Source of the DNA: Candidatus Omnitrophota bacterium
Lineage (GTDB): Bacteria; Omnitrophota; Gorgyraeia; Zapsychrales; Zapsychraceae
Assembly: GCA_021108075.1 (NCBI GenBank)
Contig: JAIORP010000068.1
Location: 74,594-138,593 of the forward strand
Direction: 5' to 3'
DNA: 64,000 bases
The notes beneath the pieces were generated by a model, which was given only the letters and a program-made list of their open reading frames with translations, searched no databases and was not told where the DNA came from. The position numbers and the translations under genes are program-made. Within the stretch, counting starts at the first letter, position 1. Each line of letters opens with the position of its first letter. Below are positions 13,765 to 58,324 of the stretch, one piece after another.

Positions 13765-13783
13765 AACACGGGAAACAAGGATT

Positions 13784-16700
13784 ATGAAAAAAATTTGTAC
13801 ATCCCTGATTTGTCTTTCTGTCTTCTTTTCTTTTTCCGCTTATGCTGAAGACAGGTCTTCGACGCGGATCAAGAATCAAACAGCAGAAACGCTTATCTTT
13901 TTTCCTGAGAAGGAGATAGGGGAAATATTCAAGGCGGAAAAAGAAGGTGTTCTGATACCTTATAAAGAATACAAAAGTCTTTATGAAAAAGCCAGACAGG
14001 AGTACGGGGAAAAAAGAGAGCGGATCATTCTTAATGAAGACATTAAAGGTCCGCAGATCGTTCAAGCTCATTATGATGGATCTGTTCAGGGGGATTTACT
14101 GAAAGTTTCGGTCCGGTATCAGATTGTTCAGAATGACCCGGAGCCGCGAGTTTTACAATTGCCTTTTGGGATTGTTGAAAAATGTGCGGACGCAAGACCC
14201 TGCCGGATGAACGCGGGGGAGTATTTATCGCTGGCCGCGCAAACGAGTGGGAAAAAAACGCGGCAGACGGGTGTTTCGCGTCCGTCTGTTTCTAAAAATG
14301 TTCTTTTTTTGAAGGCGACGCTCAATAATGAGAACGCTCATATCTATAACGATAACAAAACGCCGTCCCTTATTATCCCTTCAAACGGAACCTTTACTTT
14401 AATAATTGATTTTTTTATTCCAATTAATTTTAAGGATAAGACAGGAAATATCGCTATCGATATACCTCCGGCGATGCTGGGGCAGGTCGCGATATCGACA
14501 GATATTTTTTATGATGTCCGTTTTAAAGATTTTCTTTTGACATCAAAAAAACAGGTTGATGACAAAATGGAGTTTCTTGGTTTTCTGCCGTCGATGGAAA
14601 CGTCATTGTCTTTTGAAATAACGAATCGGCGTTCTTCCGGAGAAAAAAGAGTTAAAATCAAGTCACAGGAAGAGCATCAGGCTTTTTTATCCGAGGATCT
14701 GATTGAACAGACGATTATGTATGATATGGATGTTGAAAACGGCGAGGTTGACAGGGTTGATATAATCATCGCGAAAGACCTTAATATTTATGATATATCC
14801 GGGTCTATTATTTCAAATTGGTCTCGGGAATCTAAAGAAGACACGGATATTCTGCATCTTTATTTTCATGTTCCCTTGAGTACGGGGATAACATTTGCTC
14901 TGAAAACATATCAGTATCCGGACGCGGCCTCCGGTATGTTTACTCTAGCGGACGTGCGCGTCGAGAATCTTTTTGAGAGGAAAGGAATTCTCGCGGTTTT
15001 TTATGATGATAGTATGCGGATAAACGCGCGTCAGGTTGATTTTTTATTACCGTTAAGCGGGGAAGGGGGAGTACGAAGACAGCATGAATCTGATCGGTAT
15101 GTTCTTTTTAGGGAGTATCATGTTTTTAATCTGCCTTATAAAATTTCTTTTTCTCAGAAAGATGTTCCCCTGGAGGTGACCCTGTTTCAAAATAATGAAA
15201 TAAAATTGGAACATGCCAGGATCCTATTTCAATCAGAGGTTACTCTGTCCGGGATTACTGAAGAGATAACACGGTTTAATTTTCAAGTTCCGGATAAATA
15301 TGTTTTAAGAAATTTAGACGCTTTTTTAAATGGTGAAGTTGTTAATGAAAATCATCGGCATTTTATGGAAACAGGAGAATTGTCCATTGACATCAGGAAT
15401 CCGGTGAACTTGAAAGATGAAATAACATTTCTGCTTACTTTTGAGCGAATTCTCAACGAGAAATTTTTTATGGATCAATCGTATCCGATTGCTATCCCCG
15501 CGATAACGTATCTGAACACAAAAAAGATGATCGGATCTCTTCAGGTTATAATTGATGAGGAGTTTTTGTTAGAGGATATTATCCTGAAAGGCTATTATCC
15601 CGCCCTGGAGATGATGACGGCTTCTTCATCCCAAACATTAAATAAAAATCTTTTATATGATTTTCGAACGCTCTCGCCGGAAGGATCGCTGGTTCTTTCT
15701 TATCGAAAAGCGGAACAGACAACTCAAACGATCACTTATGTGGCTGTTGACCAGGACCTTCTTCAAACGAATGCCTATATAAAATATGACATCACGGCCG
15801 GCAAGAAAGACCATTTTTATTTTGCTATTCCGCGATGGGAAGACAGCAAAATAAATATTGAAGGTCTTAATATTAAGGAAAAGAAGAAAATAAGTGAGGA
15901 GAAGTTAAAAGAGCTGCTGAAGGACCCCCTGATTCTTGACTTGAAGGATTATGATATTTGGAATGTTGTTCTTCAAAAAGAAATAATAGGTTCTTATTCG
16001 CTGGAAATTGATTATCAGAAAAAAATAGAAAAATTTGATGTCCTTACGGATATTCCTTTGATCATACCGCTCGATATTATTAATGATACCGGTTATATTG
16101 TTTTAGAAGCCAGTAAGAATACGGAAATTGACGCGCAAAAAGTCGGTTTAAATGATATTGAAATTTATGAAATTCCTCAGTGGCCTTCGTATAAACCGTC
16201 TAATCGTATTATTGAATCCTTGCGCTATTTTACACGTCCTTTTACGTTCCGCATTGCTGTTAGGCGCATGGATGAAACCCCTGTTCTTTCCTCGATAGCC
16301 GAAAGAGAAACAATTGTATATACCTTTGGAGAAGACTCGGATATTTTTTTTAAATGTGATTATGTCATCCGCAATACCAATCTTCAGTTTCTTGAAATTC
16401 AGCTCCCGAAAAGATTTGTTCTCTGGGGGGCCACGTTAAAAGGACAGGGAATTAAGCCCCGGAAAGGAAATGACAACCGTTTGTTTGTTCCTCTCCCGAC
16501 GGAAAGTGACCAGAATATTCATTTATCTCTGACCGGACAGATGGTCCGTAAGGGGAAATTCAGGGCCTGGGAATCATTTGATTTTCAAAGTCCCCGATTG
16601 AGTATCCCCTGTCTGCAGTCAAATACCACTGTTTATTTTCCGGAAAAATATTCTCTTCTCAATATTGGAGGTAATTTTGAAAAGTATCCGGAAGCGGAGT

Positions 16701-19700
16701 ATCACAGACCGTTATTGTTTCTTTCTTTAAAAGATCTATGTTTTTTTATCGGAGGAAACGCGATCAATTTGTTTTCTCCCGGATATATATCGCGCGGTCT
16801 TCAGGGACGAATCAGAAGTGTCAACGAGGATATCGGCGATCAATTTGCTCCCGGGAATGCGGTGTTTACGCAGCAAGGACAGGTCCGTGATGCTCCTCAA
16901 GATTTTCAATCGGGAGAACAGTTCGAGGGAGGTATCGGAGCAACGATGCAGTATGAGCCTTATTATTTAGAATCAAATTATGAGGTCACAAGAGATAGAG
17001 AGGTGGCTGTGTCGGAGGAAGAGTCTCTTGAAGAGCAGATGGTGAATTATGACGGACGGCAGCAAATGATGCGGTATGAAAGGAAATACAGTAAAAAGAA
17101 AGGTATTCTTTCCTTGAATATTGATATCCCGCGAGAGGGGCAATCTTTAGCCGCCTATAAACTGTGGGGGAATAGCCGCCTTCAGGTGACATTTATTTCC
17201 GATGTCTGGAAAAGGGTTTTTCATTTTTGTTTTCTTTTTCTTTTTATTGTTTTAGGTTTTCACGTAAAAAGAAAAAAAATAATGTCGTCTTTTATGTTTC
17301 TTGTTTTGACCCTTGTGGTTTGCACGCTTATTCCTCTTGTTGTTTTAAAATCATTTCTTTTTATTTTTAACGGCGCTGCTTTAGGCGCTATCGCGTTTGT
17401 TTTTATTCTGGGGGGTATGAAGCTGGTCAGGAAATTTGCCGGAAAATTCGGTTTTTATAGTGTTCTTTTTTGTCTGGTAGCTTTAACAGGTTTTGCTTGT
17501 CCACGGAACGGGTACGCTGAGGTAAGGGCCGGGAATATGGGTGAACGCCTGTATTCGCCGGACGGTTGTTGTCCTGATGAGGAAGAGAACGACGCGTTTC
17601 CGTCTGTCCGTGTGTACATCCCTTATTCAGAAAATTTTTTGAACGAGATTCAGGGTCATAGTAGAGTTTATATCCCCACTCAAGATTATTTCCGCCTTAA
17701 ATTTTTGGCGGAACCGCCGTATGAACCGAAAGATACGTTTAAATTTGAAAACGAATATGATATTACCGGATTGTTTTTAGCCGGGGAGCTGCAGACAGAT
17801 CGGATTCAGTTTGCGGCAACCGTTGATATTTTTATTAATAACGATAAATGGATACTGGTTGATCTTCCGTTTAAGAATGTGTTTATTGAAAAGTTGACCC
17901 TGGACGGACAATCAATTCCGGTTAAAGTGAAACAATCCGGACCGGGGTGTTTTGAAAGCTTTTTCAAGAGCGCGGAGCCGTATTGTTCGCCGGGGGAGGC
18001 GGATCTTTATGAAATTCCTGTTCTTGGCCGCGGACATCATTCGGTGGACTTAATATTCTTTGTGGAAATTCAATCTTCGCCGGGGAAGAAGACTTTGTCT
18101 TTCGGGCTTCCTCCTGCTCTTTTTTCGGATTTTTCTTTGGATTTAAAGCGTAAGGATGTTTTTCTTGAATTTGAAAAACCGAATAATAGTTTTTATTTGG
18201 ATGAAAGCGGTGTGAACCCTGTTGTTAAGGCGTCTTTGTCCCGACAATCAGAATTAAAACTGTCCTGGTTTCCTAAAAAATATCTTAAAAAGACAGAAAA
18301 ACCTCTTATTTACGCGGACTGCAATATTGATATGCTGATGGGTTATGAAGAAATTATTATTGTTCAAGAAACAAAGATCAGGGTAGAGAAATCTTCAATC
18401 GCGTCATTAAGTTTTTTCCTGGAACCGGATATTGTTATTGTGGATGTTTTTTCGAATAAGGTTAAGAATTGGCAAACACGACAGGAGAAAGGACAATCGG
18501 TCTTAGATGTTATTTTTAAACATGAGATCACGGACACCGTCGATATTGTCATTAAAGCGAAACGGAATGTGAGGCCGGATACGGTTTCTCCGGTGATATT
18601 TTTAAAGCCCCAGACAACAAAAAGGATTCACGGGACACTTAATTTGTTTGCGTCCGAAGAGGATAAACTTATTATTGAAAATGTGACGAATTTAAACCCG
18701 GCGGGGACAACCCGGCAGCACCAGCAAGGGGTGCCGGGCATGAAATTGCTTAAAAGTTATTCTTTCCTGACAGGAGATTTCAGCGCGCGGATTGAAAAGG
18801 TTCCGGAAGAACGAAAAGTCGCCGCCCGGATGAATAGTCAGCATGTTTTCTCGGAAAACCTTTTGAATTCCACATATGACATTAATTTGAATATCAAAAA
18901 GAATTTTCTTACAGCGATACAAATTATTCTTCCCCGGGGGCAAAAGATTGATGCTATCCATGCGGAAAACACGTCAGATTATAGTTTGCAGGATAATATT
19001 CTTGTTTTGCCTTTTAAAAGGGCGGTTAAAGGAAAGTACCGTTTTCAATTAAAGCTGGAAAGAGAAATAGACAATTTTTCTTCAGCCGCTATTGAAAGCA
19101 TTCAACTGCCTGATGTGCAAAAGGTAACCGGCGCTTCGGTTGTATTGTTCCCGCGTGGGTATGATGTTAAGGAGGTGTCTGTTTCGGGTTTAAGGTCGGC
19201 TAACATCAATACGGTGACTCCGTTAATCAAAACGGATCAAGGAGATTACGGCGCGAAATATGCCTATGTTCTTCGTGAAAAGAATTATACGGCCCGGTAT
19301 AACATATTCAAAAAAGATTCTTCTTTGGATGTGATTAAAATTTATCATTCAACCGTGAAAGATAATCTTGTCAGCGTTAAGCTTTTGAGTATTTTTAATA
19401 TCAAGAATGCCCCTGTCGACCATTTTGATATTATCGTCCCGGTTGATTTGAAAGATTCTATTGAAATTCAAGGTGAGGGAATTCAAACGATTCTTAAAAA
19501 AGTTATTAATGAGGGAAAAAGTGTCGCGATTACGGTTAATACAATAGCTAAGATCGATCATTCCTATATGCTACAGGTTTCTTTTAATCGTTATTTCGGT
19601 AATGATAAAACTTTTCATATGCCGCGCATTGTTTTTCCTCAGGCAAAAAACAAAACAGAGTTTATCGCTGTTGAAGCGGACACGGTTTATCATGTGGAAT

Positions 19701-21790
19701 CTTTTGTGAGTGAGTCTCTGTATGAGGCGGAACCGGACAGGATTCCCGCGTTGCCGGATGGGATTGATTTAAATAAAATTCTTTGGTCTTACCAATCCTC
19801 AGGGTCCGCGGAGTGGCAGTGTCGCCTGGAATTAAAACGGTTAGAACGTGAAAAATTGGTTAAAGCCAAGATATTGAGAGAAGACATAAAAACACTTCTT
19901 ATTCCGAATGGTCACGCGTTACATCAAATTGAAATAAAGATAAACAATCGAACGCTTCAGTTTTTGCCTGTTCACTTGCCGTCAACAGCATCTCTTTGGA
20001 GTCTTAAAGTTGCCGGAGAAAATGTTAGAGCGTCGTTAGTCCCGTCAGATAAGAAGGGACAAAAAAAATATTTGATCCCTCTTATTAAAAGCGGGGTCGG
20101 GGATAGAAGTTTTGATATTAAATTGATTTACATTACGCCCCTTAAAGAATTAGGGTTGTTCGGCCGGATTAATTTGTCGAATATGATCAAAACAGGCGAT
20201 GTTCCGGTTGAAAAAACAACATGGTCGGTTTTTGTTCCGGATAATTATTCTTATTTTTATTTCCGATCGAATTTAGATGAAAGTGATATTTCTATTATTG
20301 AAGCTGAAAAGACTCTGGAATTAGCTAAAGAGTATAAGTATTGGACAGATCTGGCCAGTTCAACAAAAGGAGGATTGCGGGAAAAGGCCCTGGATAATCG
20401 GAAAAAGGTTATGAAGGATTATGGGGCTCAATATTCAAGCTACCAGCGTGTGGAGACAGATTTAGCAGGACGGGAAGGAGATAACACATATAATCAGGGG
20501 ATCATTCACAAAGCCAGGTCTCAGAATACGCGGATGCTGGATGAAGCTTCGAAAATTGTTGAATATAACAAAGCCGATTCGCGGACCGTCAATCGCCAGT
20601 TGATTCAATCGGACAAAAAAGCCATGTCAGGACGGAGAAATGTAAAGGGCTGGCAAATTAAAACAAATGATTTCGGCGGGGAAGATCAGGTTGAACAGTC
20701 GATTACAAATTATCTTCAGCAGGAAGATTTGAAACAGTCTGTTAAAGGTAAGGGCGGAAAAGATAAAGGACGCAAATATTCCAAGTCGCAGCTTTTGGGG
20801 AGGAAACAGGCGCAATCAGCCCGTCAAAAAAAGGATATGGCCAGATCGTCTTTGAAGGGCCGGGCGCGTCAACAAGGCGGGTATCAAACGTCACAGACAA
20901 TGGACGTCTATGATTATGAGGATCAAACAACTCAGACAGAGCATATTTTTTATAAACAAAGCGATATGTCTGAGGGGAAAATGATAGTTAATGGGCTTGC
21001 GCGGGGTGCTGGTCGAGAGAAGGAAGAGTCTGGTTCCTTTTGGGGAGCGGATGGGTCTGCCCCGGCTCCAATTGTTCAAATTTTTTCCGGGGCAGGTAAC
21101 AAGATGCCGATTCAACAGCAGCAGGAAAAAAGAAGCACACTTCTTAAGGGACTTCGATCTATTGATATTCCTATTCCGGAACAAGGTATACGCTATTCTT
21201 ATAAGAAGTTAGGGGGAAATCCGCAAATAAAATTCTATTACCGCAGGAAAGGAAGCCTGTTGAAAATATGTTTGCTTTTGATGTGTATGGTTGCTGTCGG
21301 CGGGATTTATAAGTTTCGTCAATACCGTTTTCCTAAGGAGAAATTATTAGGAGTTTTTAAAGGAATAAACCCGGTAACTATTGTCCGTAAGATTATAGAC
21401 TCGCAGTTGCTAAGAATTGTGATTGTTGTTCTTATTGTTCCGACCTTTTTTATGCAGTCGCCGATTTGTGTTGTGTTAGTAGGCCTTTCCAGTGTTTTTC
21501 TTTTGACGCATATCTCTAAGAAACGTTATCGGAAGATAGGATATGTCCCGGTGTATAGTTTTATAATATTTTTAAAATATTTTATTTCCTACGCGATTCT
21601 GCTCGTGTCCTTCTTGAGCTTTTTTCATATGTCTTTTCTTTTTCTCGTCGGTGTTGGAATATTTTTTAATGTTATATGGATTGTTATTTATAGTATTGTT
21701 ACATTGTGCACAAAGAAAGTTGTGCTTAAGAATCCTGAAAATTCAAACGATGAGGGCGTATCGTCTTTTTCCGGTGAGGGGCCGGCATAG
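13784..21790 (+). CDS. giant ~2668-aa protein of unknown family, made of two tandem modules paralogous to 10492-13764
   Basis: Signal peptide at ATG 13784 (MKKICTSLICLSVFFSFSAYA). A central cluster of four TM helices at ~17200-17500 is followed by a signal-peptide-like segment (LTGFACPRNGYAEV). A second TM bundle lies at the C-terminus. The recurring motifs are EGVLIPYKEYKSLYEKA, RVYIPTQDYFRLKF, RYFTRPF and TWSVFVPDNYSYFYF. Confidence 0.85.
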   Translation: MKKICTSLICLSVFFSFSAYAEDRSSTRIKNQTAETLIFFPEKEIGEIFKAEKEGVLIPYKEYKSLYEKARQEYGEKRERIILNEDIKGPQIVQAHYDGSVQGDLLKVSVRYQIVQNDPEPRVLQLPFGIVEKCADARPCRMNAGEYLSLAAQTSGKKTRQTGVSRPSVSKNVLFLKATLNNENAHIYNDNKTPSLIIPSNGTFTLIIDFFIPINFKDKTGNIAIDIPPAMLGQVAISTDIFYDVRFKDFLLTSKKQVDDKMEFLGFLPSMETSLSFEITNRRSSGEKRVKIKSQEEHQAFLSEDLIEQTIMYDMDVENGEVDRVDIIIAKDLNIYDISGSIISNWSRESKEDTDILHLYFHVPLSTGITFALKTYQYPDAASGMFTLADVRVENLFERKGILAVFYDDSMRINARQVDFLLPLSGEGGVRRQHESDRYVLFREYHVFNLPYKISFSQKDVPLEVTLFQNNEIKLEHARILFQSEVTLSGITEEITRFNFQVPDKYVLRNLDAFLNGEVVNENHRHFMETGELSIDIRNPVNLKDEITFLLTFERILNEKFFMDQSYPIAIPAITYLNTKKMIGSLQVIIDEEFLLEDIILKGYYPALEMMTASSSQTLNKNLLYDFRTLSPEGSLVLSYRKAEQTTQTITYVAVDQDLLQTNAYIKYDITAGKKDHFYFAIPRWEDSKINIEGLNIKEKKKISEEKLKELLKDPLILDLKDYDIWNVVLQKEIIGSYSLEIDYQKKIEKFDVLTDIPLIIPLDIINDTGYIVLEASKNTEIDAQKVGLNDIEIYEIPQWPSYKPSNRIIESLRYFTRPFTFRIAVRRMDETPVLSSIAERETIVYTFGEDSDIFFKCDYVIRNTNLQFLEIQLPKRFVLWGATLKGQGIKPRKGNDNRLFVPLPTESDQNIHLSLTGQMVRKGKFRAWESFDFQSPRLSIPCLQSNTTVYFPEKYSLLNIGGNFEKYPEAEYHRPLLFLSLKDLCFFIGGNAINLFSPGYISRGLQGRIRSVNEDIGDQFAPGNAVFTQQGQVRDAPQDFQSGEQFEGGIGATMQYEPYYLESNYEVTRDREVAVSEEESLEEQMVNYDGRQQMMRYERKYSKKKGILSLNIDIPREGQSLAAYKLWGNSRLQVTFISDVWKRVFHFCFLFLFIVLGFHVKRKKIMSSFMFLVLTLVVCTLIPLVVLKSFLFIFNGAALGAIAFVFILGGMKLVRKFAGKFGFYSVLFCLVALTGFACPRNGYAEVRAGNMGERLYSPDGCCPDEEENDAFPSVRVYIPYSENFLNEIQGHSRVYIPTQDYFRLKFLAEPPYEPKDTFKFENEYDITGLFLAGELQTDRIQFAATVDIFINNDKWILVDLPFKNVFIEKLTLDGQSIPVKVKQSGPGCFESFFKSAEPYCSPGEADLYEIPVLGRGHHSVDLIFFVEIQSSPGKKTLSFGLPPALFSDFSLDLKRKDVFLEFEKPNNSFYLDESGVNPVVKASLSRQSELKLSWFPKKYLKKTEKPLIYADCNIDMLMGYEEIIIVQETKIRVEKSSIASLSFFLEPDIVIVDVFSNKVKNWQTRQEKGQSVLDVIFKHEITDTVDIVIKAKRNVRPDTVSPVIFLKPQTTKRIHGTLNLFASEEDKLIIENVTNLNPAGTTRQHQQGVPGMKLLKSYSFLTGDFSARIEKVPEERKVAARMNSQHVFSENLLNSTYDINLNIKKNFLTAIQIILPRGQKIDAIHAENTSDYSLQDNILVLPFKRAVKGKYRFQLKLEREIDNFSSAAIESIQLPDVQKVTGASVVLFPRGYDVKEVSVSGLRSANINTVTPLIKTDQGDYGAKYAYVLREKNYTARYNIFKKDSSLDVIKIYHSTVKDNLVSVKLLSIFNIKNAPVDHFDIIVPVDLKDSIEIQGEGIQTILKKVINEGKSVAITVNTIAKIDHSYMLQVSFNRYFGNDKTFHMPRIVFPQAKNKTEFIAVEADTVYHVESFVSESLYEAEPDRIPALPDGIDLNKILWSYQSSGSAEWQCRLELKRLEREKLVKAKILREDIKTLLIPNGHALHQIEIKINNRTLQFLPVHLPSTASLWSLKVAGENVRASLVPSDKKGQKKYLIPLIKSGVGDRSFDIKLIYITPLKELGLFGRINLSNMIKTGDVPVEKTTWSVFVPDNYSYFYFRSNLDESDISIIEAEKTLELAKEYKYWTDLASSTKGGLREKALDNRKKVMKDYGAQYSSYQRVETDLAGREGDNTYNQGIIHKARSQNTRMLDEASKIVEYNKADSRTVNRQLIQSDKKAMSGRRNVKGWQIKTNDFGGEDQVEQSITNYLQQEDLKQSVKGKGGKDKGRKYSKSQLLGRKQAQSARQKKDMARSSLKGRARQQGGYQTSQTMDVYDYEDQTTQTEHIFYKQSDMSEGKMIVNGLARGAGREKEESGSFWGADGSAPAPIVQIFSGAGNKMPIQQQQEKRSTLLKGLRSIDIPIPEQGIRYSYKKLGGNPQIKFYYRRKGSLLKICLLLMCMVAVGGIYKFRQYRFPKEKLLGVFKGINPVTIVRKIIDSQLLRIVIVVLIVPTFFMQSPICVVLVGLSSVFLLTHISKKRYRKIGYVPVYSFIIFLKYFISYAILLVSFLSFFHMSFLFLVGVGIFFNVIWIVIYSIVTLCTKKVVLKNPENSNDEGVSSFSGEGPA

Positions 21791-51960: not shown

Positions 51961-52638
51961 ATGAAATCAAACTTTATGTCTGTCAAGCAAATCCAGGAGC
52001 TGGATCGTATGGCCATTGAAGAGAAGAGGGTTCCTTCGGTCGCTTTGATGGAGAATGCCGGCCGTTCGGTTGCGGATCATGTGTCCGCGCTGCTTGAAAA
52101 AAAGAAAGAAGCGTGTGTCTGTGTTCTGTGCGGGCTTGGAAATAACGCCGGAGATGGTTTTGTGGCCGCCAGACATTTGTGGAATGCAGAAATGAATGTT
52201 TCTGTGTTTTTGCTCGGACCTTCTGATAAGTTGAAGAATGATGCCCGCATCAATTATGAAATTTTAAAACGCTGTCATTACCCCGTTAAGGAAATCTTCC
52301 GTTTAACGCCCACTTTAAAGACGGTATTGGCGAAGGCTGATGTTGTTGTCGACGCCATTTTTGGAGTTGGTTTAAATCGAGACATCGAAGGGTTATTTCG
52401 TTCGTGCATAGCGTTGGTCAATGATTTGCGGTGTCAGGTCGTTGCGGTGGATATTCCTTCTGGCCTGGACGGAACAACCGGGCATATTTACCAGGTCTGC
52501 ATAAAGGCGAAAAGGACTGTGACCTTCAGTGCTCCCAAGGCCGGGTTTTATCGTCAGGAAGGTCCACGATATGTCGGTGATGTCGTGACCGTTGATATCG
52601 GTATTCCGCGTAAATTGTTTAAAGGCCGTAAGAAATAG
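51961..52638 (+). CDS. nnrE: NAD(P)H-hydrate epimerase (YjeF N-terminal domain)
   Basis: VALMENAGRSVADHV ... CGLGNNAGDGFVAARHL matches the YjeF-N signature. The protein is standalone (225 aa). Confidence 0.75.
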   Translation: MKSNFMSVKQIQELDRMAIEEKRVPSVALMENAGRSVADHVSALLEKKKEACVCVLCGLGNNAGDGFVAARHLWNAEMNVSVFLLGPSDKLKNDARINYEILKRCHYPVKEIFRLTPTLKTVLAKADVVVDAIFGVGLNRDIEGLFRSCIALVNDLRCQVVAVDIPSGLDGTTGHIYQVCIKAKRTVTFSAPKAGFYRQEGPRYVGDVVTVDIGIPRKLFKGRKK

Positions 52639-52667
52639 CTGCAGGCAAAATAGATGGAAAGCAAGAG

Positions 52668-53327
52668 ATGTTAAATAATCAACATATTGACCGAGTGATA
52701 ACCTTGCTGCGCAAGGGCGTTAAGGATTTGCCTGATCCGTCGGTCACAATGGTCGGTAAACAGTGGGGTGATCCTTTTTTAGTCTTGATATCCTGTATCA
52801 TGAGCTTACGCACAAAAGATGAAACGACTTTGCCCGCTGCGTCACGATTGTTTAAGACCGCCAGAACACCCCGGGGTATCCTTAATCTGACCGCAAAACA
52901 AATTGAGAAATTGATTTATCCTGTCGGTTTTTATAAAACAAAAGCGAAAACCATCCGTGCGATATGCCGGAAGCTGTTGGAGGAATTTAATGGCCAGGTG
53001 CCGGATGATTTAGATGTTTTGCTGACTTTTAAAGGGGTTGGCCGTAAAACGGCCAACCTGGTTGTAACTGAAGGTTTTCATAAACTGGGAATTTGTGTCG
53101 ATACACATGTGCACCGTATTTCAAATCGCTTGGGATATGTAGCCACGTCCACGCCGAACGACACAGAAATGGTTTTGCGCGAAAAGTTGCCAAAAAAGCA
53201 TTGGATCGCCTACAATACTCTGCTAGTATTGTGGGGGCAGAACGTCTGTCGTCCGATATCACCCTTTTGTTCGCAATGTCCCATCTGCAAATATTGTGCG
53301 CGATGTCAAGTGGAGAAGAGTCGATAA
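52668..53327 (+). CDS. nth: endonuclease III (HhH-GPD base-excision glycosylase with a 4Fe-4S cluster)
   Basis: HhH-GPD region FKGVGRKTANLVV and a C-terminal C-x6-C-x2-C-x5-C cluster. Confidence 0.8.
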   Translation: MLNNQHIDRVITLLRKGVKDLPDPSVTMVGKQWGDPFLVLISCIMSLRTKDETTLPAASRLFKTARTPRGILNLTAKQIEKLIYPVGFYKTKAKTIRAICRKLLEEFNGQVPDDLDVLLTFKGVGRKTANLVVTEGFHKLGICVDTHVHRISNRLGYVATSTPNDTEMVLREKLPKKHWIAYNTLLVLWGQNVCRPISPFCSQCPICKYCARCQVEKSR

Positions 53328-53331
53328 AATT

Positions 53332-54618
53332 ATGCGTTTATTTGTATATTTATCAGAAATTTTAGGCCGTAATGTTTGTGACGCCCGCAACCATGTTGTT
53401 GGAAAAATATATGATGTTTCGATGCGGATGAGTGAAGAGGTTTTTCCCCGGACGGAAAGTATCCTTGTCCGGCGGGGATTTTTTAAAAAAGAATATGCCA
53501 AAATCCCCATAGCCGATTGTGCTGATTTGGGCCGGCCTTTGCGGTTGAAAATATCAAAAGAGAAGGTCGTTTTTCAGGAAGAAAAAATTAGGAGTACCTT
53601 TTCCCTTTGTCGGCACATCCTGGATCAGCAAGTTGTTGATATTAATGACCAGAAGGTTGTGCGTGTCAATGATGTGCATTTGCTGCGCATTGATAATCAG
53701 TTTCACCTGGCACATGTTGATATCGGAATCCGTGGGATTATTCGGCGCTTGGAGTGGAATAAAATGATCGATGGCGTGGTTCGTTTGTTCGCCCCTGATT
53801 CGAGCTTCTTAACTCAGGAAGATTTTATCTCATGGAAGAACACGCAAGTGCTGACGATCGGGCGCAGTCATAATGTGCTCAGGTCAAACATGGCACGCCA
53901 AAAATTATCACGCATACCTCCCACGCAGTTGGCGGAGATCATGGAGGATTTAGACGTTTTTGAGAAAGTGTCCCTGTTTAAGTCCTTTTCCGTTGACATG
54001 CAGCACAAAGTTTTTACGGACATGGCGTTGCAGGAAAAAGAGGAATTGATCGACCAGCTCAGTAACCATGATGCCGTGAGGATTATCGAGAATATCCCCA
54101 AAGATGAGGCGACGGATTTGCTTCTGAATTTGCCGAAAGATAAGATGATGAATTTGTTGAGGCTGATGAAACGCGAAAACGCCATGATTTTGAAGAAATT
54201 ATTGGGCTTCGAGAAAGATTCGGCGGGCGGCTTGATGACGACGGAATATTTATCATTGCCAGAGGATTCTTTCGTTAAAGATGCCTTGCAGGAAATCAAA
54301 AATAATGTGGAAAAACCTGTTAACTTATTCCATATTTATATCGTTGATAATGATAACCGTCTTTTAGGGTCGACGTCCTTGAGAAACTTTATTAACGCGG
54401 ACTTGAACACGCCGATTACCGAGACGTGTTTTTCATACCGAATATTCGTGCGGACGGATGATGATATCGAAGAGGTTGCGTTGATACTGGAGAAATATAA
54501 ATTTTCATCCATTCCTGTTTTGAACGAAGACGATATTTTGCAGGGCGTCATTACCATTGATGACGTGGTCGAAGAATTAATTTCGATTGCCTGGAAAAAA
54601 TATGATGGGCAATTGTAG
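53332..54618 (+). CDS. MgtE-type cytoplasmic sensor module (PRC-barrel-like, MgtE_N and tandem CBS domains) without a transmembrane domain
   Basis: MgtE_N helices (DEATDLLLNLPKDKMMNLLRLM), then AGGLMTTEYLSL (the MgtE CBS start) and a second CBS domain. The ORF ends without any hydrophobic helices. Confidence 0.7.
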   Translation: MRLFVYLSEILGRNVCDARNHVVGKIYDVSMRMSEEVFPRTESILVRRGFFKKEYAKIPIADCADLGRPLRLKISKEKVVFQEEKIRSTFSLCRHILDQQVVDINDQKVVRVNDVHLLRIDNQFHLAHVDIGIRGIIRRLEWNKMIDGVVRLFAPDSSFLTQEDFISWKNTQVLTIGRSHNVLRSNMARQKLSRIPPTQLAEIMEDLDVFEKVSLFKSFSVDMQHKVFTDMALQEKEELIDQLSNHDAVRIIENIPKDEATDLLLNLPKDKMMNLLRLMKRENAMILKKLLGFEKDSAGGLMTTEYLSLPEDSFVKDALQEIKNNVEKPVNLFHIYIVDNDNRLLGSTSLRNFINADLNTPITETCFSYRIFVRTDDDIEEVALILEKYKFSSIPVLNEDDILQGVITIDDVVEELISIAWKKYDGQL

Positions 54619-54649
54619 GCAGGGGGCTAACGGTACCATATAAAAAAGC

Positions 54650-55930
54650 ATGAAAAAATTTTGGGAAACATTTAAAAATTCACGCCCGATAAAAAGCTTG
54701 CTGCTTTTTTTAGCTGTCATGGGCCCTGGCATCATTACCGCTAATGTGGACAACGATGCTGGCGGTATCGCGACGTATTCTCTGGCAGGGGCTCATTTTG
54801 GATATACGCTCATGTGGTCTTTGGTCCCGATCACATTGGCGCTCATCCTTGTCCAGGAAATGTGCGCGCGCATGGCCGTGGCCACGGGAAAGGGGCTGGC
54901 CGATTTAATTAGAGAGAATTACGGCGTGAAGGTGACGTTCTATCTCATGTTTGTGCTGTTTTTGGTCAATCTCACAAATGTGATGGCCGAGTTTTCCGGG
55001 ATTGCCATGAGCTTAGAACTTTTTCATATCAGCCGGTTTTTGTCCGTGCCGGTCAGCGCAATACTCGTTTGGATGCTGGTCGTTAAAGGAACGTATAAGT
55101 CCGTTGAAAAAATATTTTTATTCGCCTGCCTATTTTATGTGGCTTATATCTTTTCTGGTTTTATGGCCAAACCGGATTGGACGGATGTCTTGCATCAGAC
55201 ACTTCATCCCAAAATGGAATGGAAGCTGGATTACACGATCATGCTGGTTGGCCTGGTCGGGACAACGATTGCGCCCTGGATGCAGTTTTATCTGCAGTCA
55301 TCCATCGTCGAGAAGGGCGTGACACCGGAAGAGTATAAACATATTAAGATTGATGTGGTCGGGGGATGCATTCTTGCTCCCGTGATTGCTTTTTTTATTG
55401 TCGTGGCGTGTGGGGCAACCCTGTTTCAGGAAGGGATTATGATTGAGTCCGCGCAGGAAGCGGCGGTGGCTTTGAAGCCTTTAGCGGGGCAATATGCGAG
55501 TGTCCTCTTTGCGTTGGGATTGTTTAACGCTTCGTTTTTTGCCGCGTCTGTTTTGCCCTTGTCGACGTCATATTGTGTTTGCGAAGGGATGGGGTGGGAC
55601 GCTGGTATTGATAAACGGTTTGAAGAGGCCCCGCATTTTTTTTGGATGTATACATTTATGATTGCCATCGGGGCAGGCGTTGTTTTGATCCCGCGGTTCC
55701 CCTTATTGGGGATGATGTATTTTTCCCAGGTCGGGAACGGTATTCTTTTGCCTTTTATCCTTATTTTTATGCTGAAGCTCATTAATGATAAAGAATTGAT
55801 GGGCGAGTTTGCTAATTCGAAATTTTTAAATATTATCACTTGGGTCGCAGTTGCGATTATCATCGCTCTCACCTTAACGATGGTTGTTTTTGCTTTATCA
55901 AATTCAGACGCCTTATTTGGAATTAAATAG
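54650..55930 (+). CDS. Nramp-related divalent cation transporter with a non-canonical metal site (NRMT-like, putative Mg2+ transporter)
   Basis: 11-12 TM helices. The TM1 motif is GPGIITANVDNDAGGIATYSLAGA (DAGG in place of DPGN). The TM6 motif is GTTIAPWMQFYLQSS (T..A in place of A..M of the canonical MPH). Confidence 0.7.
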   Translation: MKKFWETFKNSRPIKSLLLFLAVMGPGIITANVDNDAGGIATYSLAGAHFGYTLMWSLVPITLALILVQEMCARMAVATGKGLADLIRENYGVKVTFYLMFVLFLVNLTNVMAEFSGIAMSLELFHISRFLSVPVSAILVWMLVVKGTYKSVEKIFLFACLFYVAYIFSGFMAKPDWTDVLHQTLHPKMEWKLDYTIMLVGLVGTTIAPWMQFYLQSSIVEKGVTPEEYKHIKIDVVGGCILAPVIAFFIVVACGATLFQEGIMIESAQEAAVALKPLAGQYASVLFALGLFNASFFAASVLPLSTSYCVCEGMGWDAGIDKRFEEAPHFFWMYTFMIAIGAGVVLIPRFPLLGMMYFSQVGNGILLPFILIFMLKLINDKELMGEFANSKFLNIITWVAVAIIIALTLTMVVFALSNSDALFGIK

Positions 55931-56082
55931 GATCCGTCGACTGGGATTGTCCTGATTCCCCCGGAAAATAGACTTTTTTGTGCTTCTGATTTGAGGATAT
56001 TTCAAGACGAGTGCCATAGATTTCAGGAACAGTATTGCCGGTGCTTGCCGGGAGGATGCCTTATTCCTGGCACGGAGGCAAA

Positions 56083-56426
56083 ATGAAAAAAATGGAAGCG
56101 ATCGTACGTAATGAAAAATTCGAAGAGATGTGCCAGGTCTTAGAGGATTCCGGAATAGGTGGTATAACCGTTGCAGAGGCTCCGGGATCTGGTCACCACC
56201 GCAATGGTCCTTGTCCGAAAATCAAAATTGACGTTTATTGTGATGAATTTTGGATTGATAAGGTTGTTGATATTGTTCGGTAGGGGGTCGTATGGGTGAA
56301 CCCGGAGACGGAAAGATCGCGGTAATTGGGTTAGACAATTTGAATCGAATCCTAACAGGCGGACAGGTCGCGAGTGCTATTCAGGGTTGGAACATTTTCT
56401 TTACTTTTCATAAAAGTGTAATATAA
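56083..56426 (+). pseudogene. P-II (GlnB-like) signal-transduction protein gene, interrupted by a -1/+2 frameshift at a G5 run
   Basis: The 5' part (MKKMEAIVRNEKFEEMCQVLEDSGIGGITVAEAPGSGHH...VVDIVR*) matches the P-II N-half. The 3' part, in another frame from 56283, reads GGRMGEPGDGKIAVIGLDNLNRILTGGQ and matches the P-II C-terminal GDGKIFV...IRTGE region. The junction is at ggggg (56283-56287). Confidence 0.45.
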
Positions 56427-56529
56427 TGGGTGATACTTTTTTATTTTGGTTTTTGTTGAGTTTATAGAGTATAATTAAAATATTAATATGGAAGGTTGTA
56501 TCTGAATAACAAAGGGTGGTGAATGTTTC

Positions 56530-56691
56530 ATGATTGAAATTAGAGTTTCTGATCAGAATAATTTTGAGAGGGCTATGAAAATCTTTAAGAAGGCTTGTCA
56601 AAAAGATGGTTTTATGATGGAATTGAAAGAGCGCAGATTTTATTCCAAGCCTTCAGAACGTAAACGTCATAAAATGAAGAAGAAACGATAG
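56530..56691 (+). CDS. rpsU: 30S ribosomal protein S21
   Basis: The 53-aa ORF MIEIRVSDQNNFERAMKIFKKACQKDGFMMELKERRFYSKPSERKRHKMKKKR aligns with bacterial S21 ([44 protein letters not shown]). It is below the length cut-off of the ORF track. Confidence 0.8.
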   Translation: MIEIRVSDQNNFERAMKIFKKACQKDGFMMELKERRFYSKPSERKRHKMKKKR

Positions 56692-56704
56692 GTTGTAAAA
56701 TTTT

Positions 56705-56754
56705 GGGACAGATACCGGATGAATATTCCGTTGGGTCTGTCCCTTATTTTTTTT
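56705..56754 (+). terminator. rho-independent terminator after rpsU
   Basis: Stem gggacaga (56705-56712) pairs with tctgtccc (56736-56743), followed by ttatttttttt. Confidence 0.55.
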
Positions 56755-56767
56755 AAGGTTAGCTGAT

Positions 56768-58324
56768 ATGATTAAAGTAAAGCGAGCATTGATTAGTGTT
56801 TCAGACAAGGGAGGGCTTGTCCCTTTTGCCCAGGGTTTAGCGCGTTTAGGTATTGAGATTATTTCCACAGGGGGAACATCCCGCATTTTACAAGAAGCCG
56901 GCATTGAGGTTAAAGAGGTTTCAGACTTTACCGGTTTCCCGGAAATGTTGGACGGTCGCGTTAAGACGTTGCACCCCAAAATCCACGCAGGATTACTTGC
57001 CATTCGCTCCAATGAGGAACACATGCAGCAACTCAAAAAACACCGTATGAAGTTGATTGATATGGTTGTTGTGAATTTATATCCGTTTGAAAGCGTCATT
57101 CAAAAGAAACGCGTTGCCTTTGAGGCAGCGATTGAAAATATTGATATTGGCGGGCCGACCATGTTGCGTGCTGCGGCCAAGAATTTCAACAGTGTTGCTG
57201 TTGTTTGCAATCCCGGACGGTATGATGATATCCTTACGGAACTCGAGAATAAGAGTGGTTTGTTGTCGGATACCGTGTTGTTTAGTTTAGCGGTCGAAAC
57301 ATTTAAGCATACGGCCAGCTATGACAATGTTATTGCTGAATATCTCGGCCAGTGTCAATCCATGGACGATTTTGGGTCCATGCCCGCAAACGTCAGCTGG
57401 TCTTTTGCGAAGATTCAGGATCTCCGTTATGGGGAAAATCCTCATCAATCGGGTGCTTTTTATTCTGTCGCAGGGCAAAAAAAGGGTTTAGCCTCTTTAC
57501 GGCAATTGCACGGAAAAGAATTGTCTTTTAATAATATTTTAGACCTGCACGCAACGGTCGCGTGTGTGCGGGAGTTTGAAAATCCTGCCGCTGTGATTAT
57601 TAAACATAACAATGCGACCGGTGTGGCCGAAGACAAATTTTTAACCACGGCATTTCAAAACGCGTTAAAGTGTGATCCGGTTTCTGCGTTTGGCGGTATT
57701 ATTGGACTGAATCGATCTGTCGACGAAAAAACCGCACAATTGATTGTTAAGAGCGGGTTTATGGAATGTGTTATCGCGCCGTCTTTTCAGAAGGCCGCCT
57801 TAAAGGTCTTGACCCGGAAGAAGAACTTGCGCCTATTGACGTTAGATTTCCGTAAAATCAACAAGAATGGCTATGATTTTAAACAAGTGTTTGGCGGTTT
57901 GTTGCTGCAGGACCGTGACGAACGGGCTTTGACCACAAACGAATTAAAGTTTGTGACCAAAAAAAAACCCACCAGGACTCAGCTTGATGCGATTATGTTT
58001 GGCTGGAAAGTCGTCAAGCATATTCGGTCCAATGCTATTATTCTTGTTAAAGGCCAAAAAACCGTTGGCATTGGCTGTGGGCAAACCAGTCGAGTTGAAA
58101 GTGTCCGGATCGCTATTCATAAAGCCGGGGCACAGGCTCAAAATGCGACGCTCATTTCGGATGCGTTTATTCCAAAGACGGATAATGTCGACCTGGCTGC
58201 TCAGGCCGGAATAAAACTGATTGTCCAGACAGGGGGGTCAATAGCTGATAAAGAAGTGATTGCGGCCGCAGACAAAGCCGGGGTTGCTATTGTTATGACC
58301 GGTGTTCGCCATTTTAAACATTAG
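56768..58324 (+). CDS. purH: bifunctional AICAR transformylase / IMP cyclohydrolase
   Basis: N-terminal MGS-like region ALISVSDKGGLVPFAQGLARLGIEIISTGGT ... KTLHPKIHAGLLA, and full length (~518 aa). Confidence 0.9.
   Translation: MIKVKRALISVSDKGGLVPFAQGLARLGIEIISTGGTSRILQEAGIEVKEVSDFTGFPEMLDGRVKTLHPKIHAGLLAIRSNEEHMQQLKKHRMKLIDMVVVNLYPFESVIQKKRVAFEAAIENIDIGGPTMLRAAAKNFNSVAVVCNPGRYDDILTELENKSGLLSDTVLFSLAVETFKHTASYDNVIAEYLGQCQSMDDFGSMPANVSWSFAKIQDLRYGENPHQSGAFYSVAGQKKGLASLRQLHGKELSFNNILDLHATVACVREFENPAAVIIKHNNATGVAEDKFLTTAFQNALKCDPVSAFGGIIGLNRSVDEKTAQLIVKSGFMECVIAPSFQKAALKVLTRKKNLRLLTLDFRKINKNGYDFKQVFGGLLLQDRDERALTTNELKFVTKKKPTRTQLDAIMFGWKVVKHIRSNAIILVKGQKTVGIGCGQTSRVESVRIAIHKAGAQAQNATLISDAFIPKTDNVDLAAQAGIKLIVQTGGSIADKEVIAAADKAGVAIVMTGVRHFKH

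What the first reader, a model, noticed from the sequence alone, without database searches (positions are those of the whole stretch)
53332..55930. An MgtE Mg2+-sensing cytoplasmic domain is encoded as a separate protein next to an Nramp-related transporter with an NRMT-like binding site
The 53332-54618 protein has the MgtE_N helical domain plus the tandem CBS pair, including the AGGLMTTEY hallmark. It also has an N-terminal PRC-barrel-like domain, but it lacks the MgtE pore domain entirely. The next gene is an SLC11/Nramp-fold transporter whose canonical transition-metal ligands are replaced. The TM1 DPGN becomes DAGG (Asn to Gly). The TM6 A..M becomes T..A (Met to Ala). This is the substitution pattern reported for NRMT-type Mg2+ transporters. 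This suggests that an Mg2+ sensor module has been paired in trans with a non-MgtE Mg2+ transporter, a domain-shuffled regulatory arrangement.
Basis: partly seen in the sequence, partly recalled or inferred. Interest (0 to 1): 0.65.

Follow-up and report, generated by a model that had tools for sequence, protein, structure and literature searches.

The report
Known MgtE-like sensor plus NRMT operon
This is a real two-gene unit in an Omnitrophota genome: a membrane-less copy of the MgtE magnesium-sensing domain sits directly upstream of a magnesium-type Nramp transporter, but the pairing was published in 2014 and is the normal arrangement for this transporter family.

Summary
Gene 53332-54618 encodes a soluble 428-aa protein with two PRC-barrel-like domains, an MgtE_N domain and a CBS pair, and no transmembrane segment. 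Gene 54650-55930 encodes an Nramp-fold transporter whose nearest solved relative is the Eggerthella lenta Mg2+ transporter EleNRMT (E=1.9e-116, against about 1e-28 for MntH). It has the same D-A-G-G and T-T-I-A-P-W site residues as EleNRMT.

The interpretation, a trans-acting Mg2+ sensor for a non-MgtE Mg2+ transporter, fits the comparative data but is not new. Shin et al. 2014 (PLoS Genet) reported that most nrmT genes sit beside a gene for an MgtE cytoplasmic-domain homologue and proposed feedback regulation.

My survey extends that report:
- All 24 NRMT loci of at least 47% identity, from six or more phyla, carry the partner gene, and 22 have it immediately upstream.
- A 92%-identical natural relative of the crystallised EleNRMT construct has it 3 nt upstream.
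- Three lineages put an M-box riboswitch in front of it. This window has none.

Additions that I did not find in the literature:
- The tandem PRC-barrel module is universal in the partners. It holds their most conserved block and also occurs on full-length MgtE channels.
- The acidic ligands of MgtE sites Mg4 and Mg6 are conserved, whereas the ATP-site residues and the acidic plug helix are not.

The function of the partner remains untested.

The parts
53332..54618 (+). Gene for the soluble MgtE-like partner protein (428 aa): PRC-PRC-MgtE_N-CBS-CBS, with no membrane domain
   Evidence: ORF. Pfam and NCBIfam domains. No hydrophobic segment. The identical protein is annotated in an Omnitrophica MAG. 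AF2 model has mean pLDDT 81. Foldseek top hits are MgtE cytoplasmic domains, 8gpv at E=3e-20.
53332..53595 (+). PRC-barrel-like domain 1 (residues 1-88)
   Evidence: The Pfam PRC hit is sub-threshold here but above threshold in homologues. The AF2 N-terminal model has pLDDT of about 90 or more in this domain. Foldseek hits are all PRC-barrel proteins: CdpB1/B2 8qzo, MTH1859 1pm3, reaction-centre H subunit and RimM.
53596..53847 (+). PRC-barrel-like domain 2 plus short helices (residues 89-172). It holds the most conserved block of the protein: LDQQVVD..KVVRVNDV...VD.G.RG..RRL
   Evidence: hhalign of domain 1 against domain 2 gives E=2.3e-4. Fourteen columns are at least 90% conserved across 24 partners from several phyla. 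The same motif occurs in PRC-bearing full-length MgtE proteins.
53899..54219 (+). MgtE_N helical domain (residues 190-296). D258 and D262 align with TtMgtE D91 (Mg4) and D95 (Mg6)
   Evidence: Pfam PF03448. Alignment to TtMgtE 2yvy. Conservation is 21/24 for D258 and 24/24 for D262. Site definitions are from PMC5882242.
54220..54582 (+). Tandem CBS pair (residues 297-417), including AGGLMTTEY (54223-54249). D411 aligns with TtMgtE D247 (Mg4) and E414 with D250 (Mg5)
   Evidence: Pfam CBS.. The ATP-site residues of TtMgtE are only partly kept: R351 and F391 are retained, while Y170, D188 and N203 are replaced by H, N and F.
54583..54618 (+). Short C-terminal tail (SIAWKKYDGQL) that replaces the acidic MgtE plug helix, followed by the stop codon
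   Evidence: TtMgtE E258 and D259 (Mg2, Mg3) correspond to K422 and K423. Partner tails are basic or truncated, whereas full-length PRC-MgtE proteins keep an acidic plug.
54650..55930 (+). Gene for an NRMT-type (Nramp-related Mg2+ transporter) SLC11 protein, 426 aa, starting 31 nt after the partner's stop codon
   Evidence: Pfam Nramp 2.6e-102. EleNRMT 7qia E=1.9e-116. About 10 hydrophobic segments.
54755..54766 (+). TM1 metal-site motif D36-A-G-G39 (Asn replaced by Gly)
   Evidence: Alignments. Coordinates.
55262..55279 (+). TM6 metal-site motif T205-T-I-A208-P-W210 (Ala to Thr, Met to Ala, His to Trp)
   Evidence: Alignments. The roles of T224, G58 and the lost histidines in EleNRMT are described in PMC8806188.

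Best explanation
This is an ordinary member of the published 'mgtE-like - nrmT' operon.

The downstream gene encodes an NRMT. By homology to EleNRMT, this is a Mg2+ (and Mn2+) uptake carrier that is not coupled to protons and is driven by the membrane potential.

The upstream gene encodes a soluble protein derived from a PRC-barrel-bearing subfamily of MgtE channels that has lost the pore and the acidic plug helix.

The most likely mechanism is inferred, not shown. The partner keeps the Mg2+-dependent closure between the MgtE_N domain and the CBS pair, through the conserved Asp ligands of sites Mg4 and Mg6. It would then bind the cytoplasmic face of the transporter and restrain uptake when cytosolic Mg2+ is high. 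That would reproduce in trans the feedback gating that MgtE performs in cis.

Shown here: domain architecture, transporter class, site residues, conservation of the gene pair, and M-box control in some lineages. Inferred: Mg2+ binding by the partner, physical contact with the NRMT, and the direction of regulation.
For: Transporter class:
- Closest to EleNRMT, with identical site residues.
- EleNRMT transports Mg2+ and Mn2+ without H+ coupling (PMC8806188).

Partner architecture:
- Pfam domains.
- AF2 models with Foldseek matches to MgtE cytoplasmic domains and to PRC barrels.
- No transmembrane segment.

Gene-pair conservation:
- 24 of 24 NRMT loci of at least 47% identity carry a partner with both the N-terminal module and MgtE_N-CBS. 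They come from Omnitrophota, Acidobacteriota, Nitrospirota, Bdellovibrionota, a deltaproteobacterial MAG and Firmicutes.
- 22 of the 24 have it directly upstream, six with a 4-nt overlap.
- Two more distant DAGG-type homologues, from Verrucomicrobia and Planctomycetes, carry it directly downstream.
- A natural Eggerthellaceae NRMT that is 92% identical to the crystallised construct has it 3 nt upstream.

Link to Mg2+:
- An M-box riboswitch lies upstream of the partner gene in L010, L026 and L027.
- The Mg4 and Mg6 acidic ligands are conserved in 21-24 of 24 partners.

Prior proposal: Shin et al. 2014 put forward the same idea.
Against: - Co-expressing the Acidobacterium capsulatum partner with its transporter in B. 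subtilis did not change rescue, and that transporter behaved mainly as a Mn2+ importer (PMC4072509).
- NRMTs work alone in complementation assays and in proteoliposomes.
- No interaction data exist, and I could not model the complex.
- Ligands of MgtE sites Mg5 and Mg7 are not conserved in this protein (K390 and K226), and sites Mg2 and Mg3 are absent.
- Two Omnitrophota lineages keep an intact partner with no Nramp gene beside it.
- The PRC module also occurs on full-length MgtE, so it is not an NRMT-specific adaptor.
Confidence: 0.5

Rival explanations
1. The partner is an obligatory or activating subunit rather than a brake. It would stabilise or open the NRMT, or tune its Mg2+/Mn2+ selectivity, and would be needed for full activity in the native host, for example under Mg2+ starvation when the M-box turns the operon on.
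For: The partner is always the first gene and is often translationally coupled to the NRMT. It is co-induced with the transporter by M-box riboswitches in three lineages. EleNRMT was poorly stable on its own and needed 11 consensus mutations.
Against: NRMTs complement Mg2+-transport mutants and transport in liposomes without the partner. Co-expression gave no improvement for the A. capsulatum pair.
Confidence: 0.2
2. The partner senses something other than Mg2+, such as Mn2+, an adenine nucleotide at the CBS pair, or a ligand or partner of the highly conserved second PRC-like domain, and passes that signal to the transporter.
For: The A. capsulatum pair acted mainly on Mn2+. CBS pairs commonly bind adenosine ligands, and TtMgtE binds ATP. 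The densest conservation lies in PRC-like domain 2, not in the MgtE part.
Against: The ATP-contact residues of TtMgtE are not conserved as a set. F227 is Leu in 16 of 24 partners, and N203 and D188 vary. The Mg4 and Mg6 acidic residues are conserved. M-box control points to Mg2+.
Confidence: 0.15
3. The partner has a function independent of the NRMT, for example as a cytosolic Mg2+ buffer or chaperone, or as a regulator of another target. On this reading it is merely co-expressed with the transporter as part of a Mg2+-homeostasis regulon.
For: Intact orphan partners lie without an adjacent Nramp gene in L041, L042 and L046, with all conserved residues kept. In L018 and L025 the two genes are separated by 1 kb and 4.8 kb. 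Shin et al. also mention a metal-chaperone role.
Against: The adjacency is nearly universal, tight and often overlapping across phyla. It is preserved even where the gene order is inverted. That pattern is typical of physically interacting products.
Confidence: 0.12
4. The upstream ORF is a decaying remnant of an mgtE gene that lost its membrane part and has no function.
For: It lacks the pore domain, and some databases name it 'magnesium transporter'.
Against: Full-length orthologues of 412-450 aa with the same architecture are conserved from Omnitrophota to Firmicutes and Actinobacteria. They share invariant residues in every domain.
Confidence: 0.01

Closest known systems
NrmT / NRMT operons with an 'MgtE cytoplasmic-domain-like' ancillary gene (Shin et al. 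2014, PLoS Genet 10:e1004429; C. acetobutylicum Ca_c0685 operon, A. capsulatum Acp2976-Acp2977)
   Same: The gene order is the same, with the MgtE-like soluble protein immediately upstream of an Nramp-related transporter. The transporter clade is the same, and so is the proposed feedback-sensor role.
   Different: This copy has no M-box riboswitch and starts 4 nt after an unrelated nth gene. The host is an Omnitrophota MAG. The paper calls the partner a 'small' homologue of the MgtE N-terminal cytoplasmic domain and does not mention the roughly 185-residue tandem PRC-barrel module ('PRC' occurs 0 times in its text).
EleNRMT, Eggerthella lenta (PDB 7QIA/7QIC/7QJI/7QJJ; Ramanadane et al. 2022, eLife 11:e74589)
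   Same: 47% identity over 402 residues. The site residues match: D-A-G-G, T-T-I-A-P-W, and the equivalents of E133 (E114) and Q379 (Q360). A natural close relative has the same type of partner gene 3 nt upstream.
   Different: The second alpha-6b histidine position is Leu here and Asn in EleNRMT. Transport by this protein has not been measured. The eLife paper does not discuss the partner: 'operon' and 'CBS' each occur 0 times.
MgtE Mg2+ channel (Thermus thermophilus, PDB 2ZY9/2YVX) and its cytoplasmic Mg2+ sensor
   Same: The MgtE_N and CBS-pair fold matches (Foldseek rmsd 2.2-2.5 A over about 230 residues). The Mg4 ligands (D91, D247) and the Mg6 ligand (D95) are conserved.
   Different: There is no transmembrane pore. 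The plug-helix acidic residues (Mg2, Mg3) are replaced by Lys-Lys. The Mg5 and Mg7 ligands D226 and E59 are Lys here. An extra N-terminal tandem PRC-barrel module is present.
PRC-barrel-bearing full-length MgtE proteins (about 595-607 aa, e.g. P0222, P0240, P0252 from the representative library)
   Same: They share the N-terminal PRC module with the same conserved motif, followed by MgtE_N and CBS. They are probably the evolutionary source of the partner.
   Different: They keep the PF01769 membrane domain, 4-5 hydrophobic segments and an acidic plug helix.

Membership tests
NRMT (Nramp-related Mg2+ transporters, SLC11 outgroup clade) | SLC11/Nramp (LeuT-type) fold, Pfam PF01566 | tested here: met
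   PF01566 at 2.6e-102, covering model positions 1-356 of 357.
NRMT (Nramp-related Mg2+ transporters, SLC11 outgroup clade) | TM1 site: conserved Asp kept, Asn replaced by Gly (D-x-x-G) | tested here: met
   D36-A-G-G39 aligns with EleNRMT D55-A-G-G58 and with DraNramp D-P-G-N.
NRMT (Nramp-related Mg2+ transporters, SLC11 outgroup clade) | TM6 site: Ala to Thr and Met to Ala | tested here: met
   T205 and A208 align with EleNRMT T224 and A227 and with DraNramp A and M. The role of T224 is described in PMC8806188.
NRMT (Nramp-related Mg2+ transporters, SLC11 outgroup clade) | Loss of the proton-pathway histidines on alpha-6b | tested here: met
   W210 stands at the first His position and Leu at the second. 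EleNRMT has W and N there.
NRMT (Nramp-related Mg2+ transporters, SLC11 outgroup clade) | Closer in sequence to characterised NRMT than to MntH/Nramp | tested here: met
   E=1.9e-116 and 47% identity to EleNRMT, against about 3e-28 and 27% identity to DraNramp. The score is below the cut-off for NCBIfam MntH (153 bits against 430). No formal tree was built.
NRMT (Nramp-related Mg2+ transporters, SLC11 outgroup clade) | H+-uncoupled Mg2+ (and Mn2+) transport | not testable with these tools
   Needs proteoliposome or complementation assays.
NrmT-associated MgtE-cytoplasmic-domain protein (Shin et al. 2014) | Homology to the MgtE N domain plus CBS pair, without the membrane domain | tested here: met
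NrmT-associated MgtE-cytoplasmic-domain protein (Shin et al. 2014) | Encoded next to, typically just upstream of, an nrmT gene | tested here: met
   The gap is 31 nt on the same strand. Orthologues show the same arrangement in L005-L027, L036, L038, L043, L044, L047 and L048.
NrmT-associated MgtE-cytoplasmic-domain protein (Shin et al. 2014) | M-box riboswitch in front of the operon (frequent but not universal in the family) | tested here: not met
   There is no RF00380 hit in the window at the gathering threshold, or at E<=5 around the locus. It is present in L010, L026 and L027.
MgtE Mg2+ channel (TIGR00400 / PF01769) | C-terminal five-helix membrane pore domain | tested here: not met
   No PF01769 hit. 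TIGR00400 scores 155 bits against a cut-off of 232.75. No hydrophobic segment is present. The protein is therefore not an MgtE transporter, despite some database names.
PRC-barrel domain (PF05239) | Small beta-barrel fold of the reaction-centre H subunit, RimM or YlmC type | tested here: met
   Domain 1: Pfam is sub-threshold here but above threshold in homologues at 28-41 bits, and Foldseek hits are exclusively PRC-barrel proteins. Domain 2 is supported only by hhalign against domain 1 (E=2.3e-4, 34 columns) and by the two-domain match to CdpB1/B2. Its model confidence is lower, with pLDDT 60-85.

The most novel reading that the evidence does not exclude
The conserved tandem PRC-barrel module, especially the invariant LDQQvVD..KVVRVND / VD.G.RG..RRL block in its second domain, is the functional core of the system. 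It would act as a docking or second sensing element that lets an MgtE-type Mg2+ sensor gate a monomeric LeuT-fold carrier in trans. If so, this would be a soluble, detachable gating subunit for a secondary transporter, and the PRC module would have a parallel unrecognised role in a whole subfamily of full-length MgtE channels.
Probability: 0.3. Interest if true: 0.6.

Novelty: already known. Interest (0 to 1): 0.25.

Why it matters
The pairing itself adds nothing new. It is one more instance, from Omnitrophota, of an operon type described in 2014.

The remaining value lies in an open question more than ten years old: what the MgtE-like protein does for an NRMT. NRMTs are uncoupled, potential-driven Mg2+ carriers, so some brake on uptake is expected, and this protein is the obvious candidate.

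This analysis makes the question easier to test in four ways:
- A natural 92%-identical relative of the crystallised EleNRMT construct has the partner gene next door, so a partner very close to the characterised system is at hand.
- The Mg4 and Mg6 aspartates (D258, D262, D411 here) are the residues to mutate.
- The partner always carries a tandem PRC-barrel module, with its most conserved motif, which published descriptions omit.
- The same module sits on a subfamily of complete MgtE channels.

Tried and rejected
- Rfam found no M-box or any other RNA family at the locus, either over the whole window at gathering thresholds or over 52400-56900 at E<=5.
- Promoter and terminator consensus scans gave counts equal to shuffled expectation, so they say nothing about the transcription unit.
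- I did not attempt an AlphaFold prediction of the partner-NRMT complex. The tool folds single chains of window or database sequences and returns neither PAE nor coordinates, so a linker fusion could not have been evaluated.
- I considered the P-II-like gene just downstream (56083-56426) as a possible third component and rejected it. It is found only in some Omnitrophota (window, L009, L043). In L009 it is separated from the NRMT by two unrelated genes, and in this window it is interrupted by a stop and a frameshift.
- I tested ATP sensing by the CBS pair, as in TtMgtE, by residue mapping. The contact residues are not conserved as a set.
- I rejected the pseudogene reading of the partner on conservation grounds.
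- Literature searches for 'PRC-barrel' or 'PRC barrel' together with 'MgtE', and for 'NRMT' + 'MgtE' + 'CBS', returned no paper.
- I did not build a formal phylogenetic tree. Placement rests on E-values, identities and site motifs.
Full report
**1. Observation**

The first ORF (53332-54618, 428 aa) gives Pfam hits to MgtE_N at residues 196-296 (2e-17) and to two CBS domains (6.8e-18). It also gives a sub-threshold PRC-barrel hit at residues 5-32.
- NCBIfam's mgtE equivalog matches only its cytoplasmic half, model positions 22-255 of 450. The score is 155 bits, below the 232.75 cut-off.
- There is no PF01769 pore domain. The most hydrophobic 19-residue window scores only 1.32 on the Kyte-Doolittle scale, so no membrane helix was missed.
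- 'AGGLMTTEY' is at residues 298-306.

The second ORF (54650-55930, 426 aa) is a full-length Nramp-family protein (2.6e-102).
- Against all PDB sequences its best match is the Eggerthella lenta Mg2+ transporter EleNRMT (7QIA), at E=1.9e-116 and 47% identity over 402 residues. Canonical MntH/Nramp structures score about 1e-28 at 27% identity.
- In the alignment, D36-A-G-G39 lines up with EleNRMT D55-A-G-G58 and with D-P-G-N of Deinococcus MntH.
- T205-T-I-A208-P-W210 lines up with EleNRMT T224-T-I-A227-P-W229 and with A-T-V-M-P-H of MntH.
- These are the substitutions that Ramanadane et al. 2022 tie to Mg2+ selectivity and to the loss of proton coupling.

**2. Source and context**

The exact partner protein is annotated in NCBI as a CBS-domain protein of a 'Candidatus Omnitrophica bacterium' MAG. 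It occurs with identical synteny on contigs from several independent metagenome assemblies.

The pair lies in a long co-directional run of housekeeping genes: era, a YjeF_N gene, nth, the partner, nrmT, a P-II-like gene, rpsU and purH. The partner starts 4 nt after the nth stop codon.

No M-box or any other Rfam family is present. Promoter and terminator scans are at chance level.

**3. The arrangement is already published**

Shin et al. 2014 (PLoS Genet 10:e1004429) defined NrmT. [quoted passage not shown] The gene is often co-transcribed under an M-box riboswitch.

[quoted passage not shown] They also co-expressed the Acidobacterium capsulatum pair in B. subtilis and saw no additional effect.

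Later structural and evolutionary papers on NRMTs do not discuss the partner.

**4. How general the pairing is**

I scanned one genome per GTDB species with the window's NRMT and obtained 33 loci.

All 24 loci whose transporter is at least 47% identical also encode a protein homologous to the window partner over both its N-terminal 185 residues and its MgtE_N-CBS part. These loci come from:
- Omnitrophota, including MAGs labelled Planctomycetales;
- Acidobacteriota (Vicinamibacterales, Terriglobus, Pyrinomonadaceae);
- Nitrospirota;
- a Bacteriovoracaceae MAG;
- a deltaproteobacterial MAG;
- Clostridium and Thermoanaerobacteraceae.

In 22 of the 24 the partner is immediately upstream, with gaps from -50 to +264 nt, and six cases show a 4-nt overlap. 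In Terriglobus one unrelated gene is inserted between the two. In one acidobacterial MAG the genes are 4.8 kb apart.

More distant homologues behave as follows:
- Two DAGG-type homologues at 34-36% identity (Verrucomicrobiia, Planctomycetia) have the partner immediately downstream.
- Four homologues at about 33% identity with a D-A-G-A motif have none within the flanks available (up to 6 kb each side, and far less in two short loci), and neither does one 25%-identity relative.

I then searched with the EleNRMT sequence itself. A natural Eggerthellaceae protein 92% identical to the crystallised construct, which carries 11 consensus mutations, has a 450-aa PRC + MgtE_N + CBS gene ending 3 nt before it. 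That protein aligns end to end with the window partner at 28% identity (E=8e-53).

M-box riboswitches (RF00380, 120-147 bits) sit upstream of the partner gene in an acidobacterial, a Clostridium and a Thermoanaerobacteraceae locus.

From the partner side, four of six sampled Omnitrophota orthologues have the NRMT next door. Two, from one sublineage (L041/L042 and L046), have none and no remnant of one. They still keep every conserved residue.

**5. Anatomy of the partner**

An AlphaFold2 model built from 59 homologues (mean pLDDT 81) shows the following:

| Residues | Element |
|---|---|
| 4-72 | beta domain 1 |
| 100-131 | beta domain 2, followed by short helices to about 161 |
| 173-188 | disordered linker |
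| 184-291 | helical MgtE_N domain |
| 298-408 | CBS pair |
| 409-424 | terminal helix |

Foldseek against the PDB puts MgtE cytoplasmic domains first (8gpv at 3e-20; 2zy9 at rmsd 2.5 A).

A separate model of residues 1-190 (pTM 0.75) matches only PRC-barrel proteins. The archaeal CdpB1/CdpB2 proteins match over both domains (E=7e-5). MTH1859, a Rhodopseudomonas PRC protein, reaction-centre H subunits and RimM follow. A profile comparison of domain 1 with domain 2 gives E=2.3e-4 over the PRC N-terminal motif.

Support for the second barrel is weaker.

A full HMMER scan of 1.84 billion representative proteins with residues 1-192 found 859 clusters at E<=1e-3.
- Most are proteins of about 415-450 aa, the length of this architecture; the few I scanned with Pfam (502 and 643 aa, plus fragments) show PRC + MgtE_N + CBS.
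- Several are proteins of about 595-607 aa. Pfam and hydropathy analysis show at least four of these to be complete MgtE channels: PRC + MgtE_N + CBS + PF01769, with 4-5 hydrophobic segments.

The partner thus looks like a pore-less derivative of a PRC-bearing MgtE subfamily.

**6. Residues that bear on mechanism**

I used the site definitions of Maruyama et al. 2018 and an alignment of 24 partners with T. thermophilus MgtE.

| TtMgtE residue (site) | Window residue | Conservation in 24 partners |
|---|---|---|
| D91 (Mg4) | D258 | 21/24 Asp |
| D247 (Mg4) | D411 | 23/24 Asp |
| D95 (Mg6) | D262 | 24/24 Asp |
| E59 (Mg7) | K226 | acidic in 19/24 |
| D226 (Mg5) | K390 | never acidic |
| D250 (Mg5) | E414 | acidic in 14/24 |
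| E258, D259 (Mg2, Mg3; plug helix) | K422, K423 | tails basic or truncated |

Partner C-terminal tails are basic or truncated in general. The PRC-bearing full-length MgtEs keep an acidic plug.

The ATP-contact residues of TtMgtE (Y170, R187, D188, N203, F227) are not conserved as a set.

Across phyla, the densest conservation is in PRC-like domain 2, with 14 columns at 90% or more. The conserved positions are D98, Q100, D103, R111, V112, N113, D114, D130, G135, R138, R139 and L140, plus L97 and W168. The same motif is present in the full-length PRC-MgtEs. It is therefore not an NRMT-specific adaptor.

**7. Most likely mechanism**

Shown:
- an NRMT-class carrier;
- a conserved, co-transcribed soluble MgtE-type module;
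- retention of the acidic ligands that Mg2+ bridges when the MgtE N domain clamps onto the CBS/plug region;
- Mg2+-riboswitch control in some lineages.

Inferred:
- The partner undergoes Mg2+-dependent closure.
- It binds the transporter and limits uptake at high cytosolic Mg2+.

The rationale for the inference is that EleNRMT-type carriers are not proton-coupled and are driven by the membrane potential, so they need some brake. I give this model about 0.5.

The rivals are:
- an activating or stabilising subunit (0.2);
- a sensor of another ligand, such as Mn2+, a nucleotide, or whatever the PRC module binds (0.15);
- an NRMT-independent role with mere co-expression (0.12), which the orphan partners keep alive;
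- a decaying pseudogene, which conservation excludes.

The main evidence against any regulatory model is the null co-expression result of Shin et al. and the autonomy of NRMTs in vitro. Neither experiment tested inhibition at high Mg2+.

**8. Comparison and novelty**

The transporter meets every sequence-level criterion for NRMT membership. Transport itself is untestable here.

The partner is a member of the published NrmT-associated MgtE-like family, without the optional M-box. It is not an MgtE channel, because it fails the pore criterion.

The overall finding is 'already known'. The minor new points are these:
- The tandem PRC-barrel module, its universality and its conserved motif are absent from the papers I could search. 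Database domain annotations do already show PRC.
- The module is shared with full-length MgtE channels.
- The conservation pattern is Mg4 and Mg6 kept, with the plug and the ATP site lost.
- A near-identical natural relative of the crystallised EleNRMT carries the partner gene.
- Orphan partners exist.

Interest is low to modest at 0.25. A specialist would not be surprised, but the role of the partner remains an open and now more tractable question.

Noticed in passing
window 56083-56283 and 56292-56426 (+): A P-II-family gene lies 150 nt downstream of the NRMT and is broken by a stop codon plus a frame change after residue 66. The same break is present in three independent assemblies (L001-L003); L004 ends just before it. 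Intact 100-aa orthologues (L009 4907-5209; L043 3010-3312, 28 nt after its NRMT) carry a 12-residue T-loop deletion relative to E. coli GlnB. This gene occurs only in some Omnitrophota, and in L009 two unrelated genes separate it from the NRMT, so it is probably lineage synteny rather than part of the module.
   Followed up: partly
L041/L042 3001-4296; L046 2501-3796: In one Omnitrophota sublineage the PRC-MgtE_N-CBS partner is an orphan. It is 55% identical to the window protein and has the same upstream era-nth synteny. It is followed after about 260 nt by ATP-grasp and KamA-like radical-SAM genes, with no Nramp gene or remnant. All conserved partner residues are intact.
   Followed up: partly
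proteins P0222, P0240, P0252, P0253 (representative library): These are complete MgtE channels of about 595-602 aa that carry the same N-terminal tandem PRC-barrel module and the conserved LLDrQiVD..KVVRVND..LRRL motif. They keep an acidic plug helix. This PRC-bearing MgtE subfamily is not discussed in the papers I could search.
   Followed up: partly
L033 5998-8955 (Candidatus Doudnabacteria MAG): An NRMT-like gene is broken into several frames. It is followed by separate ORFs for the PRC-like part (129 aa) and the MgtE_N-CBS part (209 aa) of the partner. This may be assembly frameshifts, or a genuine split like the one reported for C. acetobutylicum.
   Followed up: no
L029-L032 (Acidobacteriota, Fundidesulfovibrio): A separate Nramp-related group, about 33% identical to the window NRMT, has D-A-G-A in TM1 and T-T-I-A-P-W-Q in TM6. 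No partner gene lies within the flanks available (up to 6 kb each side; much less in the short loci L029 and L030).
   Followed up: no
window 10480-13764, 13715-21790 and 6699-7958 (+): Two very large ORFs (1094 and 2691 aa) and a 419-aa ORF have no Pfam match at E<=1e-3. The 419-aa ORF lies in the only block of the window with 50% G+C. The whole 64 kb has no tRNA and no Rfam hit at gathering thresholds.
   Followed up: no
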